A DNA stretch of 64,000 nt from Candidatus Latescibacterota bacterium (GTDB taxonomy: Bacteria > Latescibacterota > UBA2968 > UBA8231): assembly GCA_964291625.2 (NCBI GenBank), contig OZ220089.1:4322554-4386553 (forward strand). Direction: 5' to 3'. Numbering within the stretch: position 1 is the stretch's first letter; each line of letters opens with the position of its first letter. Shown piece after piece: positions 3,301-34,132 of this stretch. Position numbers and translations under genes: made by a program. The notes under the pieces are model-generated. The model saw only the letters and a program-made list of their open reading frames with translations, did not search any database and was not told the origin of the DNA.

Positions 3301-3724
3301 GCGGCCGGGATCCGCCTCCCTCGCCGTACCCGCCACCACCGCCGGGTGCAACATGACCAGCGACGACTTCGCGGTCACCGCCGGGTGGGGCCACTTCGGA
3401 ACAGGCGATGTCGTCATGCCGGGCAAGGGCCGCATCGTCGAGCGCGACTACACCCCTTCGGAACGCGCCGCCCTCGGCGACGCAATACCTACGCTCGGCG
3501 TCAAGACGCTCGACGTGTACCTGAATGACCGGGCCTTCTGGAGCAACGTCCCCGCCGGCATCTGGGACTACAAACTCGGCGGCTACCAAGTCCTCAAGAA
3601 ATGGCTGTCCTACCGAGAACGCGTTGTCCTTGGGCGAAGTCTGTCGGCGGAGGAAGTGCTGTACTTTGCAGAAACCGCTAGGAGGGTGGCGCGGATAAGG
3701 CTGTCAAGCCGATGCTTGGGATAG
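362..3724 (+). CDS. Single-chain type IIG/IIL-like restriction-modification enzyme (PD-(D/E)XK nuclease + gamma-class N6-adenine methyltransferase + C-terminal specificity region)
   Basis: ORF 350..3724. ATG at 362 lies 12 nt after GAGGA; TTG at 350 is the alternative start. N-terminal 'GHPDFGLY...(24 aa)...GVVEVKS' is a D...EXK nuclease motif as in MmeI-type enzymes. SAM motif I 'VLDPCCGTGAYL' is at about 1526-1561. Motif IV 'GNPPYNG' has its NPPY at 1901-1912. The long C-terminal region resembles the type ISP / IIG C-terminal domain. Confidence 0.8.
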   Translation: MTTRTTARLTAAVEHYLTDLHRIRASGSATGERSSYGPLANLLNAVGGTLKPKVFCVGELADQGAGHPDFGLYSSRQVQKGQPRPGQTPERGVVEVKSADDDAWLTAHSRQVSRYWDRYSLVLVTNTRDFVLLGEDSARLPAKLETFRLAESADEFEQRLETPHAFARDVGAGLAEYLGRALAHRAALSEPRDLAWLLASYARDGLARVEAAGDAQPLKAVRSALEEALGVRFEGPRGEAFFRSTLVQTLFYGLFSAWVLWARQAKQGDRFDWRTSVWHLRAPVLRALFHQLSGPGRLKHLDLVEVMDWTAAALDRVDRPAFFSRFNEGEAVPYFYEPFLQAFDPGLRKQLGVWYTPSEVVRYMVARVDRALRDDLGIADGLAADNVYVLDPCCGTGAYLAEVLRRIAANLQGRGLGALAGARVKQAALERVFGFEIMPAPFVVAHLQVGLTLQDLDAPLAEEGEERATVFLTNALTGWEPKADKPLPFPELEEERDRAERVKRDTPILVILGNPPYNGFAGMAVEEERELSEAYRTTRRVRRPEGQGLNDLYVRFFRMAERRIAERTGQGVVCFISNYSWLDGLSFTGMRERYLEAFDAIRIDNLHGDRIISEYAPDGRTSETVFALPGQSPGIKVGTSIALLAKTGNPVDPSKGGHILYRDFHQARAEERRAALLESLDSPQLDAGYTTLEMNLRLGLPFRPATVSEDWFGWPAVPDLFPVSFPGVKTSRDGFLVDTDLDRLKARIGEYYDPTLSHDDIARRYPGVMKSTARYDARAVRDALLARGGPIDTGFVRHAYRPLDNRWIYWEADTQLLDRNRADYKPHVFEGNLWLGSSKREVHEEFSNGILTYHLGNWKLGNWGIHFFPLWLRDEGFGVGNEAQRRPNISGAAQGYLQRLGASVEDLFHHVLVTVHHPDYRKANAGALRMEWPRIPLPGWADGETSGAAEALAESAARGRGLARLLDPDTPVPGVTYGELRPGSASLAVPATTAGCNMTSDDFAVTAGWGHFGTGDVVMPGKGRIVERDYTPSERAALGDAIPTLGVKTLDVYLNDRAFWSNVPAGIWDYKLGGYQVLKKWLSYRERVVLGRSLSAEEVLYFAETARRVARIRLSSRCLG

Positions 3725-29424: not shown

Positions 29425-30198
29425 TCAAACCCTCTCTCTCTCCAGTGATGGTTGGGACCGGCCGCTGCCGGCCTCTCTCTCCTTTGACCATTCCTCCACC
29501 AGCCGCAACTCCCTGTCGTCCAGGTCCGCCGCGGGCAGCAGGTCGGGCCGGCGCTCGAAGGTGCGGCGCAGAGCCTGACGCCGGCGCCAGGCCTCGACCT
29601 CGCCGTGGTCCCCGCGGAGCAGTTCCTCGGGGACGCGCTGGCCGTCGAACTCGGCGGGCCTCGTGTACCACGGGCAGTCGAGGAGCCCGTCGTGGAACGA
29701 GTCGGCCATGGCCGAACTGAAGTCGCCGAGAACGCCAGGCAACAGCCGGGTCACGGCATCGATCACCACGAGGGCCGCGGTCTCGCCGCCGGTGAGCACA
29801 TAGTCGCCGATGGACAGCTCGCGGTCGATGAAGCGCTCGCGCAGGCGCTCGTCGACGCCCTTGTAGTGGCCGCACAGCAGCACCAGGTGCGGCTGCAGCG
29901 ACAGCTCGACCGCAGTCTGCTGGCCGAAGCGCTCGCCGTCGGCGGTGAGATAGATGCCCAGGCCCCGGTCGAGTTCCAGCTCTTCCCAGCAGGCGGCCAC
30001 GGGCTCCGGTTTGATGAGCATGCCGCCGCCGCCGCCGAAAGGGGCGTCGTCGACGGTGCGGTGCCGGTCGATGGCCCAGGACCGCAGGTCGTGCACGGCC
30101 ACCTCCAGGTGGCCGCCCGAGGCGGCCCGGCCCAGGATGCTCGTCTCCAGTGGCTGGGTGAAGAACCGCGGAAACAGGGTCACCACGTCGATCCTCAC
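29425..30198 (-). CDS. trmD: tRNA (guanine37-N1)-methyltransferase
   Basis: ORF-track 257 aa: 'MRIDVVTLFPRFF', 'VDDAPFGGGGGMLIKPEP', 'LLCGHYKGVDERL', 'SIGDYVLTGGE'. Confidence 0.95.
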   Translation of the reverse strand: MRIDVVTLFPRFFTQPLETSILGRAASGGHLEVAVHDLRSWAIDRHRTVDDAPFGGGGGMLIKPEPVAACWEELELDRGLGIYLTADGERFGQQTAVELSLQPHLVLLCGHYKGVDERLRERFIDRELSIGDYVLTGGETAALVVIDAVTRLLPGVLGDFSSAMADSFHDGLLDCPWYTRPAEFDGQRVPEELLRGDHGEVEAWRRRQALRRTFERRPDLLPAADLDDRELRLVEEWSKEREAGSGRSQPSLERERV

Positions 30199-30199
30199 A

Positions 30200-30769
30200 T
30201 CAGCCTCCCCGCTCCAGGAGGTCCTCGACGCCCCGTACGTCGATCCGCCGCCGGTCCACGTCGATGCGGGTCACGAAGTCCCGGACCGCCGGCAGCAGAA
30301 TCTCGCCGCCGTCCTCCAGCCGCACCGCGAAGACATCGCTGGCCGGCATCTCCAGCACTTCGGTCACCTCGCCGAGACAGCGGCCCTGGTCATCCCGGAC
30401 CCGGCAGCCGATCACGTCGAAGACGAAGTAACGGCCCTCGGGAGGCGGGGCGACCTGATCCCCGGGGACCGTCAGGTATCCGCCCGTGATCCCCTCCCGC
30501 ACCTCCTCCGGGGAGTCGATGCCCGCGAACTTCACAAGCACCCCCCTGGGGACCGGGCGGCACATTTCGACCTGCAGGTCGACATCCGGATGCCCGTCGC
30601 GCTCGAGCCGCACGGAGCGCAGCCCGTCGAATCGGTCCGGATCCCAGGTGAGGGGCTCCACGAGAACCTCGCCGCGGACGCCCCTGGCGCGCCGGGCAAA
30701 GCCGACGGCGACGCGTCCCGGTGCCCGCCCGTCGGCGGACCTACTCCTCTGCCGGCTCCCCGCCCTCAC
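30200..30769 (-). CDS. rimM: 16S rRNA processing protein RimM
   Basis: ORF-track 189 aa with a GTG start that overlaps the rpsP 3' end. 'VAVGFARRARGVRGEVLVEPLT' is followed by a PRC-barrel-like C-terminus. It sits in the canonical position between rpsP and trmD. Confidence 0.8.
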   Translation of the reverse strand: MRAGSRQRSRSADGRAPGRVAVGFARRARGVRGEVLVEPLTWDPDRFDGLRSVRLERDGHPDVDLQVEMCRPVPRGVLVKFAGIDSPEEVREGITGGYLTVPGDQVAPPPEGRYFVFDVIGCRVRDDQGRCLGEVTEVLEMPASDVFAVRLEDGGEILLPAVRDFVTRIDVDRRRIDVRGVEDLLERGG

Positions 30770-31154
30770 TGGACGCGGCCTCCGGGGCCTCCTCGGCCGG
30801 CGCGGCCTCCGGGGCTTCCTCCGCCTCAGCCGGCGCGGCGGCGCCGAGCTTCTTGCGGCGTTTGGGCTTGTCGGTGGTCAGCGCGCCCTGGCGCTCGACG
30901 CCCTCGAAGCCGCGCCAGCGGGCGAGGATGCCCTTGCTGCGCAGCAGGTCGTGGACCGTGGGGGTCATCTGGGCGCCCTTCTTCAGCCAGTCCACGGCGG
31001 CCTCCTCGTCGACCTCGAAGCGGGCGTGCACGGGGTCGTACGTGCCCAGCTCCTGCAGCGAGTGGCCGGAACGGGGGAGGCTGTCCGTCGTGGCGACTAT
31101 GCGGTAGAAGGGGCGCTTCCTGCGTCCCATTCTCTTGAGTCGAAGCTTGACCAA
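30741..31154 (-). CDS. rpsP: 30S ribosomal protein S16 with Ala/Pro/Glu-rich C-terminal extension
   Basis: ORF-track 137 aa. It begins 'MVKLRLKRMGRRKRPFYRIVATTD' and has a roughly 55-aa low-complexity tail. Confidence 0.95.
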   Translation of the reverse strand: MVKLRLKRMGRRKRPFYRIVATTDSLPRSGHSLQELGTYDPVHARFEVDEEAAVDWLKKGAQMTPTVHDLLRSKGILARWRGFEGVERQGALTTDKPKRRKKLGAAAPAEAEEAPEAAPAEEAPEAASSEGGEPAEE

Positions 31155-31202
31155 GTGTCGATGGCTCCTGGAGTGGAGGAAGTGGTGGGGTTCGGAGTGG
31201 AA

Positions 31203-32549
31203 TCAGAGGGCCGGCATGGACAGGGGCAGGGACCTTCGGCCCCGTCCCTTGCGCCCCGGCCGGCTCATCTGGCGCAGCATCTTCTGCATGGCGTGGAACT
31301 GCTTGACGAGACGGTTCACGTCCTGGATGGAGGTGCCGCTGCCGCGGGCGATCCGCCGCCGGCGGCTGCCGTTGAGGATCTGCGGACGACGGCGCTCCTG
31401 AAGGGTCATGGAGTTGATGATCGCCTCGGTGCGGGTGAAGGCGCCGTCGTCGACGGGGGCCCCCTTCAGCGCCTTGCCGGCGCCGGGGATCATGCCCATC
31501 AACTGGTCCAGCGGCCCCATGCCCCGCACCGCCTGCAGCTGTTGCTGGAAGTCCTCGAAGGTGAACGCCTCCTTGCTCAGGCGGGCCTCCATGGCCGCGG
31601 CCTGCTCGCGGTCGAAGCTCTGCTCCGCCTTCTCCACCAGGGAAAGCACGTCCCCCATCCCCAGGATGCGGGAGGCGACGCGGTCCGGGTGGAAGGGCTC
31701 CAGCCCCTCGAGGGTTTCGCCCGTGCCGACGTAGCGGATCGGCTGCCCGGTGGTCTGGCGGATCGACAGGGCCGCGCCCCCGCGGGCGTCGGAGTCCATC
31801 TTGGTCAGCACCACGCCCTGGAAGGCGATCCGCTCGTGGAAGCGGCTCGCCGTCTCCACCGCGTCCTGGCCGAGCATGGCGTCGGCGACGAAGAGGATCT
31901 CGTGGGGTTGCACGGCCTCGCGGACGGCCGTCAACTCGGCCATCATCTCCTCGTCGATGCTCAGACGGCCGGCGGTGTCGAGGAGGACGATGCTGCGGTT
32001 GTTGAGGCGCGCCTGCTGCACGCCGAGGCGGCAGATCTCGACCGGGTCGTCGGAGCCGGCTTCACCGGGCCCGAAGACGCCGACGTCGATGCTGGCCCCG
32101 AGGGTGCGCAACTGCTCGACGGCGGCGGGGCGGTAGGTGTCGGCCGCCACCAGGCAGGGGAGTCGCCCCCGCTCCTTGAAGTGGCGGGCGAGCTTGGCGG
32201 CCACCGTGGTCTTGCCGCAGCCTTGCAGACCGACGAGGAGCACCGCCGTCGGCGGCTGCGGCGCCAGCTCCAGCGGCGCGGCGGTGCCTCCGAGAAGGGC
32301 GACGAGCTCCTCGTGGACGACCTTGATCACCTGCTGCCCCGGGCTCAGGCTGCGCAGGACTTCGCGTCCGAGGGCCCGTTCGCGAACGCGCCCGAGGAAG
32401 CTCCTGGCCACCTTGAAGTTGACGTCCGCCTCGAGGAGGGCGCGGCGGATCTCGCGCAGGGACTGGTCGAGGGCTTTCTCGCTGATGCGCCCGTGGCCGC
32501 GCAACTGGCGGAAGACATCGTCGAAACGCTCTGTCAGTCTCTCGAACAA
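31203..32549 (-). CDS. ffh: Signal recognition particle protein Ffh
   Basis: Frame of ORF 31203..32780. TTG at 32549 gives 'LFERLTERF'. P-loop 'GLQGCGKTT', 'DTAGR', and a Met-rich M domain are present. Confidence 0.95.
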   Translation of the reverse strand: MFERLTERFDDVFRQLRGHGRISEKALDQSLREIRRALLEADVNFKVARSFLGRVRERALGREVLRSLSPGQQVIKVVHEELVALLGGTAAPLELAPQPPTAVLLVGLQGCGKTTVAAKLARHFKERGRLPCLVAADTYRPAAVEQLRTLGASIDVGVFGPGEAGSDDPVEICRLGVQQARLNNRSIVLLDTAGRLSIDEEMMAELTAVREAVQPHEILFVADAMLGQDAVETASRFHERIAFQGVVLTKMDSDARGGAALSIRQTTGQPIRYVGTGETLEGLEPFHPDRVASRILGMGDVLSLVEKAEQSFDREQAAAMEARLSKEAFTFEDFQQQLQAVRGMGPLDQLMGMIPGAGKALKGAPVDDGAFTRTEAIINSMTLQERRRPQILNGSRRRRIARGSGTSIQDVNRLVKQFHAMQKMLRQMSRPGRKGRGRRSLPLSMPAL

Positions 32550-32695
32550 ACCGCCGTCCCCGCGAGCGTAACCCCTTGCCGGAAAAGGAGTAAATATAGG
32601 TTGGAGGTGCCGCTCCCGCCACGGGCGGGAGGCCGCCGGGCGCGCTTCCCCGACAGCCCGGGGGATACCTCGGGCCGCGAGGCGCAACAGTAGGG

Positions 32696-34132
32696 GTGAT
32701 GGTGGACGAGGACGGAAAGGACTTGGTGAGAGCGGCGGCCTCGGGTGACGCCGGGGCCTTCGGCCGCCTGGCGGAAGCACACGCGGGCTGGCTGCTGGCG
32801 CGGATCTCGTCGAGGATGGGTTCGCGGGAGACCGCCGAGGACCTCCTGCAGGAGGTCTTCCTGGCGGCCTGGGAGCGGCTGGGGACGCTGCGCGATCCCG
32901 CCAGCTTTCCCGCCTGGCTGCGCTCGATCGCCGACAACCAGGTGCGCATGTGGCAGCGCCGCCGCCTCACCCAGCTCGACCTGCTGGCCCGGCTGGAGAT
33001 CGAGACCGGCCCCCCCGAGGCGCAGGCTCCGCGGGAGGAGGAGGTCCGCGGCCTCCTGCAGGAGGCCATCGGGCGCCTCGGCGCCGCCCAGCGGGAGGTC
33101 GTCGTCCACCACTACCTCAAGGGCTACTCCTACCGGCAGACGGCCCTCCTGCTGAACCTGAGGCCGGAGACCGTCCGCAGCCGTCTGCAGAAAGCCCGGT
33201 CACGACTGCGAGAGGAGATCATCGCCATGCCGGACTCGAGCTTCACCCAAGAGTATGAACTCACCGCCTCCGACCTGACCGGACTGCGTCACCTGGCCCG
33301 CGTCCGGGGCCGCGACCACCGGCGGATCCTGCGGTGCGTCTGCCTGGACGCGGGAGGCCGCATGGTGGCCTGCGACGGCGCCCGGCTGCTGAGCTGGTCG
33401 AGCGGGGGTCTGGCCGCCCTCACGGCTCCCGTGATCCTGGAGTCGGTGGTTTCCGAGGCGATCCCGGAGGCGGAGGGAGCCACCCTGACGATCGGGGAGG
33501 AGGAGGCGACCTTGACGACCTTGAAGACGGGGGACGGCGTCAGCGTGGCTTTCCCCCTGCACCCGGGTCCCTACGTGCGCTACGAGGAGGTCCTGGCCAG
33601 CTATCCGCCCGGCCCCGTCTCCGCAGTCGCGGGGACCGCGGAGCTGATGGCCTGCGTCGAGGAGATCGAGCCGTACCTGAGACCCCGGCACCCTGTCGAA
33701 ACCCGGGGATGGGTCTACCGTCCTCTCGTCGAGATCCGCCTCTCGGGTCCGGAGAGCCGGCTGACGCTGCGCACGGGCCGGGACCAGGGATTCACCCGCG
33801 TCGAAGATGCGGCGCCGGACCTGGGTCCGGGGGGGCCCGAATGGACCCACTCGGTGGCTTGCCCGGTGCGGGCGAAGGGTCTGGAGGGGGAATCCTTCCG
33901 GGTGGGAGTCAACCACGATTTCCTGAAGGCGATCGCGGCGGCTCTGGGGGACGCGGGCGAGGAGATCCGGATCCGCCCCGGGGAAGGGACCGGGGAGGGC
34001 TGGCCGCCGGCCCTCCACTTCGACGTGGGCGGCGGCCGCCACAGCGCCCTGCTCATGCCGATGCGCATGGAATCTCGGGAGCCCCGGGAGGGTGCCTCGG
34101 CCGCGACGGCCGGGCAAGTCCCTCAACCCTGA
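32696..34132 (+). CDS. ECF-type sigma-70 family factor fused to a DnaN (beta-clamp) domain II-III-like C-terminal module
   Basis: ORF-track 478 aa; start is GTG 32696 or ATG 32699. Sigma region 2 is 'DLLQEVFLAAWERL'. Sigma region 4 is 'QREVVVHHYLKGYSYRQTALLLNLRPETVRSRLQKARSRL'. C-terminal blocks are 'GGRMVACDGARLL', 'GPYVRYEEVL', 'VGVNHDFLKAIAAAL' and 'ALLMPMRM'. These align in order with E. coli DnaN 'TVATDGHRLA', 'GRFPDYRRVLP', 'IGFNVSYVLDVLNAL' and 'YVVMPMRL'. Confidence 0.85.
   Translation: MMVDEDGKDLVRAAASGDAGAFGRLAEAHAGWLLARISSRMGSRETAEDLLQEVFLAAWERLGTLRDPASFPAWLRSIADNQVRMWQRRRLTQLDLLARLEIETGPPEAQAPREEEVRGLLQEAIGRLGAAQREVVVHHYLKGYSYRQTALLLNLRPETVRSRLQKARSRLREEIIAMPDSSFTQEYELTASDLTGLRHLARVRGRDHRRILRCVCLDAGGRMVACDGARLLSWSSGGLAALTAPVILESVVSEAIPEAEGATLTIGEEEATLTTLKTGDGVSVAFPLHPGPYVRYEEVLASYPPGPVSAVAGTAELMACVEEIEPYLRPRHPVETRGWVYRPLVEIRLSGPESRLTLRTGRDQGFTRVEDAAPDLGPGGPEWTHSVACPVRAKGLEGESFRVGVNHDFLKAIAAALGDAGEEIRIRPGEGTGEGWPPALHFDVGGGRHSALLMPMRMESREPREGASAATAGQVPQP

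What the first reader, a model, noticed from the sequence alone, without database searches (positions are those of the whole stretch)
32696..34132. ECF-type sigma factor with a C-terminal two-domain beta-sliding-clamp (DnaN)-like module
This is one uninterrupted 478-aa ORF.

Residues ~1-175 are an ordinary group-4 sigma factor. Region 2 is 'DLLQEVFLAAWERL...FPAWLRSIADNQVRMW'. Region 4 is 'QREVVVHHYLKGYSYRQTALLLNLRPETVRSRLQKARSRL'.

The remaining ~300 aa align by eye, colinearly, with domains II-III of E. coli DnaN:
- 'RILRCVCLDAGGRMVACDGARLLSWS' vs 'YLNGMLFETEGEELRTVATDGHRLAVCS'
- 'FPLHPGPYVRYEEVLASYPPGP' vs 'SKLVDGRFPDYRRVLPKNPDKH'
- 'FRVGVNHDFLKAIAAAL' vs 'MEIGFNVSYVLDVLNAL'
- terminal 'HSALLMPMRM' vs 'AAYVVMPMRL'

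No anti-sigma gene is adjacent; the next gene is the convergent rpe. That is the pattern of ECF groups that are regulated by their own C-terminal extension.

I am not aware of any described ECF group with a clamp-fold extension. Such a module could gate sigma activity, tether it to DNA or replisome partners, or mimic the clamp for clamp-binding proteins.
Basis: partly seen in the sequence, partly recalled or inferred. Interest (0 to 1): 0.8.

Follow-up and report, generated by a model that had tools for sequence, protein, structure and literature searches.

The report
Sigma factor fused to clamp-like module
One gene in an uncultured Latescibacterota bacterium joins an ordinary ECF-type transcription sigma factor to a two-domain module descended from the DNA-replication sliding clamp (DnaN), a conserved fusion that no searchable paper or database annotation describes and that may use the clamp's partner-binding groove to control the sigma factor.

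Summary
Window 32696-34132 (+) is one uninterrupted 478-aa ORF.

- Residues 1-175 are a group-4 (ECF) sigma factor.
- Residues ~185-458 are homologous to beta-clamp (DnaN) domains II-III. This rests on a family profile that reaches Pfam-verified DnaN in 1.84 billion proteins, on PDB hits that are all clamps, and on a confident AlphaFold model whose top 50 Foldseek PDB matches are all beta clamps.
- Pfam's own DnaN models miss every member, which explains why sources call these proteins only "sigma-70 family" or "hypothetical".
- The fusion recurs in at least 92 protein clusters, from Latescibacterota (including closed chromosomes) and Handelsmanbacteria, so it is not an assembly artefact.
- No anti-sigma gene and no conserved neighbour accompanies it.

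New findings:
- DnaN's peptide-binding cleft residues are retained.
- Domain I is absent and the ring-closing face of domain III is remodelled.
- A clamp-binding-motif-like peptide (Q-L-x-L-L) sits just after sigma region 2.4 in 89/93 fusions and in 0/16 nearest non-fused ECFs.

Best reading: a self-regulated ECF sigma whose clamp-derived module works as a peptide-binding regulatory extension, not as a DNA ring. The mechanism is inferred, not shown.

The parts
32663..32688 (+). Conserved upstream motif GGATAC-N15-GCAAC; candidate promoter or leader of the gene itself
   Evidence: It occurs once in the 64-kb window, against 0.03 expected by chance. It occurs once in each orthologous locus, always directly 5' of the sigma gene although the flanking genes differ.
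32696..34132 (+). Whole sigma-clamp ORF (478 aa including the GTG codon; the conserved ATG is at 32699; stop codon 34130-34132)
   Evidence: The full-length fusion is conserved.
32768..32965 (+). Sigma region 2 (residues 25-90)
   Evidence: Pfam PF04542, 47.9 bits; helical in the model.
32972..32986 (+). Q93-L-D-L-L97, a motif resembling the clamp-binding motif, directly after region 2.4 (WQRRR)
   Evidence: Q is present in 89/93 fusions and a hydrophobic residue (L/F/W/I) at position 96 in 87/93. Q is absent from this position in all 16 nearest non-fused ECFs. Among solved ECFs, SigL and 5uxx lack it while CnrH has RQFLF.
33053..33214 (+). Sigma region 4 (residues 120-173), helix-turn-helix for the -35 element
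   Evidence: Pfam PF08281, 49.8 bits, and PF04545, 28.9 bits.
33248..33595 (+). Clamp-like domain A (residues 185-300), homologous to DnaN domain II; includes V224-A-C-D-G-A-R-L231, matching DnaN V170-L177
   Evidence: Profile matches to DnaN residues ~125-280; alignment; PHROG 947 hit in family member P0061. The segment matching DnaN's second inner helix of domain II is shortened: median 35 residues against 40.5.
33596..34069 (+). Clamp-like domain B (residues 301-458), homologous to DnaN domain III; ends in L-L-M-P-M-R-M, matching DnaN V-V-M-P-M-R-L
   Evidence: hmmsearch against PDB aligns query positions 215-273 with DnaN 310-366; hhalign E=2.3e-4; M454 is conserved in 90/92 and P455 in 92/92 modules.
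33692..33721 (+). Family-specific insertion 1 (residues 333-342, PVETRGWVYR). It contains conserved Y341 and is flanked by conserved H332 and P343. It begins a few residues after the equivalents of DnaN I272/L273.
   Evidence: H332 is conserved in 79/92, Y341 in 79/92 and P343 in 82/92 modules. At Y341 all 20 DnaN sequences have a gap; at H332 and P343 they mostly have other residues.
33791..33853 (+). Family-specific insertion 2 (residues ~366-386) with conserved W383; it replaces DnaN's acidic hairpin (E. coli ~298-304)
   Evidence: W383 is conserved in 88/92 modules, and DnaN has a gap there in 20/20 sequences.
34070..34129 (+). Disordered C-terminal tail (residues 459-478), found only in the window's subclade
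   Evidence: pLDDT below 50 for residues 461-475; the tail is absent from most orthologues.

Best explanation
Shown: this is a genuine single-polypeptide ECF sigma factor. Its C-terminal ~275 residues descend from beta-sliding-clamp domains II and III.

Inferred: the module is not a DNA-encircling clamp. It works as a built-in regulatory or partner-binding extension, as in the 'one-component' ECF groups that lack an anti-sigma factor. It does so through the clamp's retained hydrophobic peptide-binding cleft.

Most specific proposal (inferred, least certain): the cleft binds in cis the motif Q-L-x-L-L, which resembles the clamp-binding motif and lies at the start of the sigma2-sigma4 linker. 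That would hold sigma2 and sigma4 in a compact state and so set whether the sigma can engage core RNA polymerase. A competing ligand for the cleft or the motif would flip the switch. The gene probably drives, or is driven from, its own conserved upstream element GGATAC-N15/16-GCAAC.
For: Fusion and fold:
- ORF and sigma domains.
- The module profile reaches Pfam-verified DnaN at E 1e-8 to 1e-5 in 1.84e9 proteins, with the first half aligned to domain II and the second half to domain III.
- All 24 PDB sequence hits are clamps.
- The AlphaFold model has mean pLDDT 84.8, and its top 50 Foldseek PDB hits are all beta clamps. Phage DnaN proteins lead the viral library.

The fusion is conserved in at least 92 cluster representatives, in Latescibacterota chromosomes and in Handelsmanbacteria.

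No anti-sigma gene is adjacent and no neighbour recurs. This matches the reported pattern that ECFs with C-terminal extensions lack anti-sigma factors (PMC7826278).

Cleft retained across 92 modules: R209 81/92, T/C226 86/92, G228 82/92, R230 73/92, N406 85/92, M454 90/92, P455 92/92.

Not a ring:
- Only two clamp domains are present.
- The segment matching the second inner helix of domain II is shortened.
- Two family-specific insertions carrying or flanked by conserved H332, Y341, P343 and W383 fall on the domain III elements that close the DnaN dimer.

The linker motif is specific to the fusions: Q in 89/93 fusions against 0/16 nearest non-fused ECFs.

Precedent: the ECF41 extension acts by contacting a motif in the sigma2-sigma4 linker (PMC8999054).
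Against: - No experiment or coordinate-level contact analysis was possible. The tool returns no PAE or coordinates, so cis docking of the motif into the cleft is untested.
- The model places residues 93-97 in a helix (pLDDT ~64), whereas clamp-binding peptides bind in an extended conformation.
- The covariation analysis did not enrich cleft columns (effective sequence number ~30).
- The cleft residues are also the general sequence signature of the DnaN fold, so part of their conservation could be structural.
- One solved non-fused ECF (CnrH) has Q-F-L-F at the motif position.
- Whether the extension activates or inhibits the sigma is unknown.
Confidence: 0.5

Rival explanations
1. Trans coupling to the replication and repair machinery. 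Either the module's retained cleft captures proteins carrying clamp-binding motifs (polymerases, Hda, MutS/L-type partners), acting as a sensor or decoy, or the sigma's own Q-L-x-L-L motif binds the cell's genuine beta clamp. In both cases the sigma's activity or location would be tied to replication or DNA damage. This would be a cellular counterpart of phage T4 and Mu late transcription.
For: The cleft residues are conserved. The linker motif matches the clamp-binding consensus QL[SD]LF / QLxLxL, which I recall from the literature, and it is specific to the fusions. There is precedent for sliding clamps activating transcription: T4 gp45 with gp55 and gp33 (PMC2988020, PMC7892883), and Mu C with the host beta clamp (PMC12867686).
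Against: No replication or repair genes are linked to the locus. There is no direct evidence for any trans partner. A module that competed for clamp-binding proteins would be expected to be toxic unless it were tightly controlled.
Confidence: 0.2
2. DNA tethering. The two-domain module oligomerises, either as a PCNA- or gp45-like trimer or by pairing with DnaN, into a ring. Alternatively it binds DNA as a monomer, like herpesvirus UL42. Either way it would hold the sigma or the holoenzyme on DNA.
For: The module has a clamp fold. Two-domain protomers form trimeric rings in PCNA and gp45, and monomeric two-domain processivity factors exist (the viral hits include PCNA and herpesvirus factors). 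The T4 precedent applies here too (PMC7892883).
Against: Domain I is missing. The domain III elements that close the DnaN ring are replaced by family-specific insertions. One of the four channel-lining helices is shortened. The module is strongly acidic, with median net charge -14 and pI ~5; DnaN is acidic as well, so this is only weak evidence. A trimeric ring would carry three sigma factors, and no dedicated loader gene lies nearby.
Confidence: 0.12
3. The module is a decaying or purely structural appendage, for example one that gives solubility or dimerisation, with no specific regulatory role.
For: Some genomes carry frameshifted or truncated copies: P0048 and P0014 on one 635-kb contig, P0049 in a 5.9-Mb chromosome, and P0221 and P0222.
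Against: The module is as well conserved as the sigma part, from 80% down to below 35% identity, with invariant family-specific residues and a conserved cleft. The fusion persists across at least two candidate phyla.
Confidence: 0.06
4. Artefact: two adjacent genes joined by a sequencing or assembly error, or a chance resemblance to DnaN.
For: None beyond the initial lack of Pfam, NCBIfam and PDB hits for the single sequence.
Against: The same continuous ORF occurs in at least 92 cluster representatives from independent assemblies, including closed chromosomes. Sequence profiles and structure both identify the clamp fold.
Confidence: 0.01

Closest known systems
ECF sigma factors with fused C-terminal regulatory extensions (ECF41/56/294/295 with SnoaL-like domains, ECF42 with TPR, ECF238 with Cys-rich tails; Casas-Pastor et al. 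2021, PMC7826278)
   Same: A minimal sigma2-sigma4 core followed by a C-terminal domain longer than 50 aa. No adjacent anti-sigma factor. The extension type is conserved together with the core sigma sequence. In ECF41 the extension contacts a motif in the sigma2-sigma4 linker, and a fusion-specific linker motif exists here too.
   Different: The extension here is a ~275-aa two-domain module derived from the beta clamp. It is not SnoaL, TPR, Cys-rich, DUF1835 or transmembrane. No Pfam domain detects it. The sigma core is only 30-40% identical to the nearest non-fused ECFs and reaches no NCBIfam subfamily cutoff.
Bacterial beta sliding clamp DnaN (DNA polymerase III beta subunit)
   Same: Homologous fold and an in-order alignment of domains II and III. 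The signature residues of the partner-binding cleft are conserved (R152, T172, G174, R176, L177, Y244, N320, M362, P363, in E. coli numbering), as is the C-terminal MPMR strand.
   Different: It lacks domain I. It is fused to a sigma factor. It has two conserved insertions at the dimer-interface elements of domain III and a shortened inner helix in domain II. It falls below Pfam thresholds. It is very unlikely to form the head-to-tail dimeric ring.
Phage clamp-activated transcription: T4 gp55 (sigma-like) and gp33 with the gp45 sliding clamp (PMC2988020, PMC7892883); Mu C with the host beta clamp (PMC12867686)
   Same: A promoter-specificity factor and a sliding-clamp-fold protein are physically coupled. 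The coupling in the phages runs through short clamp-binding peptides, and a similar-looking peptide is present in this sigma factor.
   Different: In the phages the clamp is a separate, complete, loader-dependent ring that tracks on DNA. Here an incomplete clamp derivative is covalently fused to a cellular ECF sigma, and there is no evidence of DNA loading.

Membership tests
Group 4 (ECF) sigma-70 family | Sigma region 2 domain present | tested here: met
   PF04542 matches residues 25-90 at 47.9 bits, cutoff 24.
Group 4 (ECF) sigma-70 family | Sigma region 4 domain present | tested here: met
   PF08281 matches residues 120-171 at 49.8 bits, cutoff 25.7.
Group 4 (ECF) sigma-70 family | No regions 1.1 or 3; only a short sigma2-sigma4 linker; matches the ECF superfamily model | tested here: met
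   TIGR02937 scores 97.6 bits against a cutoff of 42.9 over residues 21-174. No region 3 or 1.1 model matched.
Group 4 (ECF) sigma-70 family | Binds core RNA polymerase and directs transcription from a cognate promoter | not testable with these tools
   Only a conserved upstream candidate element was found.
Defined ECF groups (ECF Hub classification 2.0) and NCBIfam ECF subfamilies | Score above the group- or subfamily-specific model threshold | tested here: not met
   No NCBIfam equivalog or subfamily model reaches its cutoff; the best is SigE-fam_strep at 85.7 bits against 141.55. The ECF Hub group HMMs are not available here, so membership in a numbered ECF group was not tested. The paper's main text mentions no clamp extension and its supplements are not held.
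ECF groups regulated by a C-terminal extension | C-terminal extension longer than 50 aa conserved with the core, and no adjacent anti-sigma factor | tested here: met
   A ~300-aa extension is conserved in at least 92 clusters. No anti-sigma-like neighbour is present and no neighbour is conserved.
ECF groups regulated by a C-terminal extension | Extension of a known type (SnoaL-like, TPR, Cys-rich, DUF1835, transmembrane) | tested here: not met
   No Pfam family matches the extension in any of 21 members. The fold is that of a beta clamp.
ECF groups regulated by a C-terminal extension | The extension modulates sigma activity | not testable with these tools
   This needs biochemistry or genetics.
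Beta sliding clamp DnaN | Three structurally similar domains (Pfam DNA_pol3_beta, _beta_2 and _beta_3 above threshold) | tested here: not met
   Only two clamp domains are present, and no Pfam DnaN model hits the window protein or any of 21 members. Genuine DnaN controls hit all three models.
Beta sliding clamp DnaN | Clamp (processivity) fold and detectable homology | tested here: met
Beta sliding clamp DnaN | Hydrophobic partner-binding cleft between domains II and III | tested here: met
   The residues are conserved at sequence level. The pocket geometry itself was not inspected because no coordinates are available.
Beta sliding clamp DnaN | Head-to-tail dimer ring through the domain I / domain III interface, encircling DNA | tested here: not met
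   Domain I is absent, and the interface elements of domain III carry family-specific insertions. The oligomeric state itself is not testable here.
Phage T4-type clamp-activated transcription | A separate sliding clamp, loaded on DNA, that binds the sigma or co-activator through a C-terminal clamp-binding peptide | tested here: not met
   The clamp-like part is covalently fused and incomplete. The candidate motif is internal (residues 93-97), not C-terminal.

The most novel reading that the evidence does not exclude
The fusion is a cellular counterpart of phage clamp-activated transcription. Through its retained clamp cleft and its own clamp-binding-like motif, this sigma factor would plug directly into the network of the replisome and clamp-binding proteins, or onto DNA as a non-canonical clamp assembly. 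A dedicated regulon would then be switched by replication or DNA-damage status, with no anti-sigma factor involved.
Probability: 0.15. Interest if true: 0.9.

Novelty: new variant of a known kind. Interest (0 to 1): 0.68.

Why it matters
[quoted passage not shown] Those with fused C-terminal domains are the 'one-component' versions, and the sensing logic of most of them is unknown.

A clamp-derived extension would add an unexpected domain class to that list. It would also be a rare case of the replication clamp fold being recruited outside DNA replication and repair.

The partner-binding cleft is conserved, and a clamp-binding-like peptide appears in the sigma2-sigma4 linker only in the fusions. 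The family therefore offers a concrete, testable model for how a peptide-groove interaction can gate a sigma factor. It may also represent a cellular link between transcription initiation and the clamp interaction network, which so far is documented only for phages T4 and Mu.

Pfam's DnaN models miss every member tested, so the family is invisible to standard annotation. A dedicated profile would re-annotate roughly a hundred protein clusters from candidate phyla.

Tried and rejected
1. Single-sequence searches of residues 177-478 against Pfam, NCBIfam and PDB found nothing. Scanning all 21 family members against Pfam gave 0 DnaN hits.
2. AlphaFold without an alignment gave pLDDT 40 and was unusable.
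3. Stand-alone two-domain modules as evidence for an independent protein were rejected for the cases examined. P0053 is cut by the contig end (the upstream codons read QKARKRLQQEVIA). P0077's cluster contains a 449-aa member. P0058 lies next to a 490-aa ORF that looks like a transposase by eye and has no Pfam hit, so it may be a disrupted fusion.
4. No conserved neighbour or operon partner exists: no gene recurs in more than 13 of 31 loci.
5. The regulon search failed. The motif GGATAC-N14-19-GCAAC is found only upstream of the gene itself in the window and the loci held.
6. A scan of viral contigs found no relative, and PADLOC gave no hit for the window protein.
7. Mutual-information covariation between the linker motif and the cleft columns was inconclusive.
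8. An internal ribosome-binding site (AAGGAG-N9-ATG at M178) that would produce a free module is not supported. The AAG-GAG codons are invariant, but so are 10 of 27 other conserved E/K columns, so there is no excess constraint. L033 keeps GAGGAG-N9-ATG despite a different peptide, so the idea is not excluded.
9. The sigma-70-type promoter and intrinsic terminator scans of the locus found nothing.
10. The supplementary tables of the ECF classification paper are not held in the library.
Full report
**1. The observation**

Window 32696..34132 (+) is a single 478-aa ORF without interruption. Orthologues begin V-[IT]-M-[DE]-R..., so the conserved ATG at 32699 is the likelier start.

Residues 25-90 match Pfam Sigma70_r2 and residues 120-171 match Sigma70_r4_2. 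The NCBIfam ECF superfamily model TIGR02937 scores 97.6 bits against a cutoff of 42.9, and no subfamily or equivalog model reaches its threshold.

The flanking genes are ffh (SRP54, divergent) and rpe (convergent), followed by a PASTA-domain protein and rsmB. Nothing resembling an anti-sigma factor is adjacent.

**2. Is the C-terminal part clamp-like?**

Taken alone, residues 177-478 hit nothing in Pfam, NCBIfam or PDB sequences. A search with this part found 49 protein clusters, nearly all 440-470 aa long and carrying the sigma domains. The fusion is therefore conserved down to about 50% identity, and a profile search extended it to 34-38%.

Four lines of evidence then identify the fold:
- A profile of 21 modules (A2) searched against PDB sequences returned 24 hits up to E=10, all of them beta sliding clamps (best E=0.0024). 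Two stretches align in order: DnaN ~126-179 with module positions 8-57, and DnaN ~310-366 with positions 215-273. hhalign against E. coli DnaN gave E=2.3e-4 over the C-terminal 55 columns.
- The exhaustive HMMER search of 1.84 billion representatives gave 268 hits at E≤1e-3. After the fusion family came a long series of 360-390-aa proteins matched at residues ~125-280, with E from 1e-8 to 1e-5. Pfam confirmed eight of those tested as three-domain DnaN.
- With a 45-sequence alignment, AlphaFold gave a confident model: mean pLDDT 84.8 and pTM 0.68, with low confidence only in the sigma2-sigma4 linker and the C-terminal tail. Its 50 best Foldseek matches in the PDB are all bacterial beta clamps (E 3.5e-12 to about 1e-10, probability 1.0, ~300 aligned columns). 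In the viral library, phage DnaN proteins lead, followed by PCNA and herpesvirus processivity factors.
- PHROG 947 (DNA polymerase processivity factor) hits family member P0061 at 1.9e-15.

Pfam's DNA_pol3_beta_2 and beta_3 models detect none of the 21 members. That explains why the sources name these proteins only 'RNA polymerase sigma-70 factor, ECF subfamily' or 'hypothetical protein'.

**3. Distribution and integrity**

HMMs I built from the two halves show both parts in 92 cluster representatives.

The species-representative genome scan found 30 loci. Nearly all are in Candidatus Latescibacterota MAGs, including many closed chromosomes, and a few records are labelled Gemmatimonadota. A more distant fusion comes from Candidatus Handelsmanbacteria. 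No relatives were found in viral contigs.

Apparent stand-alone modules turned out to be contig-end truncations, clusters that also contain full-length members, or a copy next to a transposase-like ORF. A few genomes carry frameshifted copies.

The gene has no conserved neighbour. It does carry its own conserved 5' element, GGATAC-N15/16-GCAAC. This element occurs once in the window (0.03 expected by chance) and once per orthologous locus.

**4. Anatomy relevant to mechanism**

An alignment of 92 modules with 20 DnaN sequences runs in order from the first strand of DnaN domain II to the C-terminus.

The residues that line DnaN's partner-binding cleft (assignment from established knowledge of E. 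coli beta) are retained:

| E. coli DnaN | Window residue | Conservation in modules |
|---|---|---|
| R152 | R209 | 81/92 |
| T172 | T/C226 | 86/92 |
| G174 | G228 | 82/92 |
| R176 | R230 | 73/92 |
| L177 | L231 | L or M in 86/92 |
| Y244 | Y296 | 81/92 |
| N320 | N406 | 85/92 |
| M362 | M454 | 90/92 |
| P363 | P455 | 92/92 |
| R365 | R457 | 70/92 |

The ring-forming features, in contrast, are lost:
- Domain I is absent.
- The stretch corresponding to the second channel-lining helix of domain II is shortened: median 35 residues against 40.5, and only a three-residue helical turn in the model.
- Two family-specific insertions fall on the domain III elements that form the DnaN dimer interface. 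One begins a few residues after the equivalents of I272/L273, and the other replaces the acidic hairpin. They carry or are flanked by conserved H332, Y341, P343 and W383.

The module is acidic (median pI ~5), as is DnaN, so charge does not discriminate between the readings.

**5. A fusion-specific linker motif**

Directly after region 2.4 (W-Q/H-R-R-R) the fusions carry Q-[LIVP]-x-[LFW]-[LE]. The window has QLDLL and the consensus is QLNLL. Q is present in 89/93 fusions and a hydrophobic residue at position 96 in 87/93, in a family whose overall identity falls below 30%.

This resembles the bacterial clamp-binding motif QL[SD]LF / QLxLxL; UmuC, for example, has QLNLF (from memory).

None of the 16 closest non-fused ECFs (30-40% identical) has Q at this position. 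Among solved ECFs, SigL and 5uxx lack it, while CnrH has RQFLF. The motif therefore travels with the clamp-like module.

A covariation test between motif and cleft columns was inconclusive.

**6. Interpretation**

Shown: this is a real ECF sigma factor fused to a module homologous to DnaN domains II-III. The fusion is conserved, lacks an anti-sigma neighbour, and retains the cleft residues but not the ring-closing features.

Inferred: the module acts as a regulatory or partner-binding extension, as in ECF41 and ECF42-type one-component sigma factors. The reference classification reports 19 groups with C-terminal extensions, typically without anti-sigma factors (PMC7826278). In ECF41 the extension works by contacting a linker motif (PMC8999054).

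The most economical specific model is an intramolecular latch between the cleft and the linker motif.

The main rival is trans coupling, in which the cleft captures clamp-binding proteins or the motif binds the genuine clamp. That would echo T4 gp55/gp33/gp45 and Mu C with the beta clamp (PMC2988020, PMC7892883, PMC12867686).

Ring-type DNA tethering is disfavoured by the missing domain and the remodelled interface, but it is not excluded.

**7. Novelty**

Six literature searches found no paper describing a sigma-clamp fusion. The main text of the ECF classification and the 2022 review do not mention one. The ECF Hub models and supplementary tables were not available, so an unnamed group containing such proteins cannot be ruled out.

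I rate it a new variant of a known kind: an ECF sigma with a C-terminal extension of a new domain type.

Noticed in passing
window 32640-32698; L004-L033 at about 3440-3480: A ~45-nt block directly upstream of the start codon is conserved in about 30 orthologues although their flanking genes differ. The core is CGGATACC-N-AGCAACTATAAGG, and the window reads GGGGATACCTCGGGCCGCGAGGCGCAACAGTAGGGGTG. It may be an autoregulated ECF-type promoter, or a promoter plus ribosome-binding site.
   Followed up: partly
window 33203-33229 (codons 170-178); same position in L004-L033: AAGGAG or GAGGAG lies 9 nt before the ATG of M178 at the junction between the sigma part and the module; M178 is conserved in 82/92 modules. 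The most distant orthologue, L033, keeps GAGGAG-N9-ATG with a different peptide. This could be an internal translation start giving a free module, but the codon-level constraint is no greater than background (10 of 27 conserved E/K columns are invariant).
   Followed up: yes
P0082, P0106, P0194, P0183, P0186, P0184: More distant two-domain clamp-like modules occur in other architectures. P0082 has an N-terminal zinc ribbon. P0106 and P0194 have a C-terminal SEC-C-type CPCGSGKKYKKCC motif. P0183 and P0186 are phage-like proteins with a Lys/Pro-rich linker and a C-terminal domain; P0183's C-terminal domain hits the ZorC 'EH signature' model, and both hit PHROG 947. The two-domain DnaN derivative may be a broader unannotated family.
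   Followed up: partly
P0048 and P0014 (same 635-kb contig); P0049 / L031 (5.9-Mb chromosome); P0221; P0222; L032: Some genomes carry split, frameshifted or truncated copies of the sigma-clamp gene. These could be real pseudogenes or errors in long-read assemblies.
   Followed up: no
L036 32-1504 (-) and 1537-2457 (+): The only module-only gene with an intact upstream context (P0058, 306 aa, with an unrelated 37-aa N-terminus) lies 33 nt from a divergent 490-aa ORF that looks like a DDE-type transposase by eye (no Pfam hit). An insertion may have removed the sigma part.
   Followed up: partly
window 29425-32549 (- strand): A conserved translation-related cluster, trmD, rimM, rpsP and ffh, lies upstream on the opposite strand. 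ffh and rpsP were confirmed by Pfam; trmD and rimM were read only from their translations. The listed ffh ORF (525 aa from a GTG) over-extends: the SRP54 N domain begins near 32549, so the ffh / sigma intergenic region is about 150 nt. This synteny with ffh is shared only by the window's own subclade (L004-L006, L014).
   Followed up: partly
window 33098-33133 (residues 135-146): Region 4.1 of this sigma family has an unusually invariant stretch, V-x-V-H-H-Y-L-K-G-Y-S-Y, identical in all 36 aligned Latescibacterota members. This is more conserved than most of the sigma core. Its significance is unknown.
   Followed up: no
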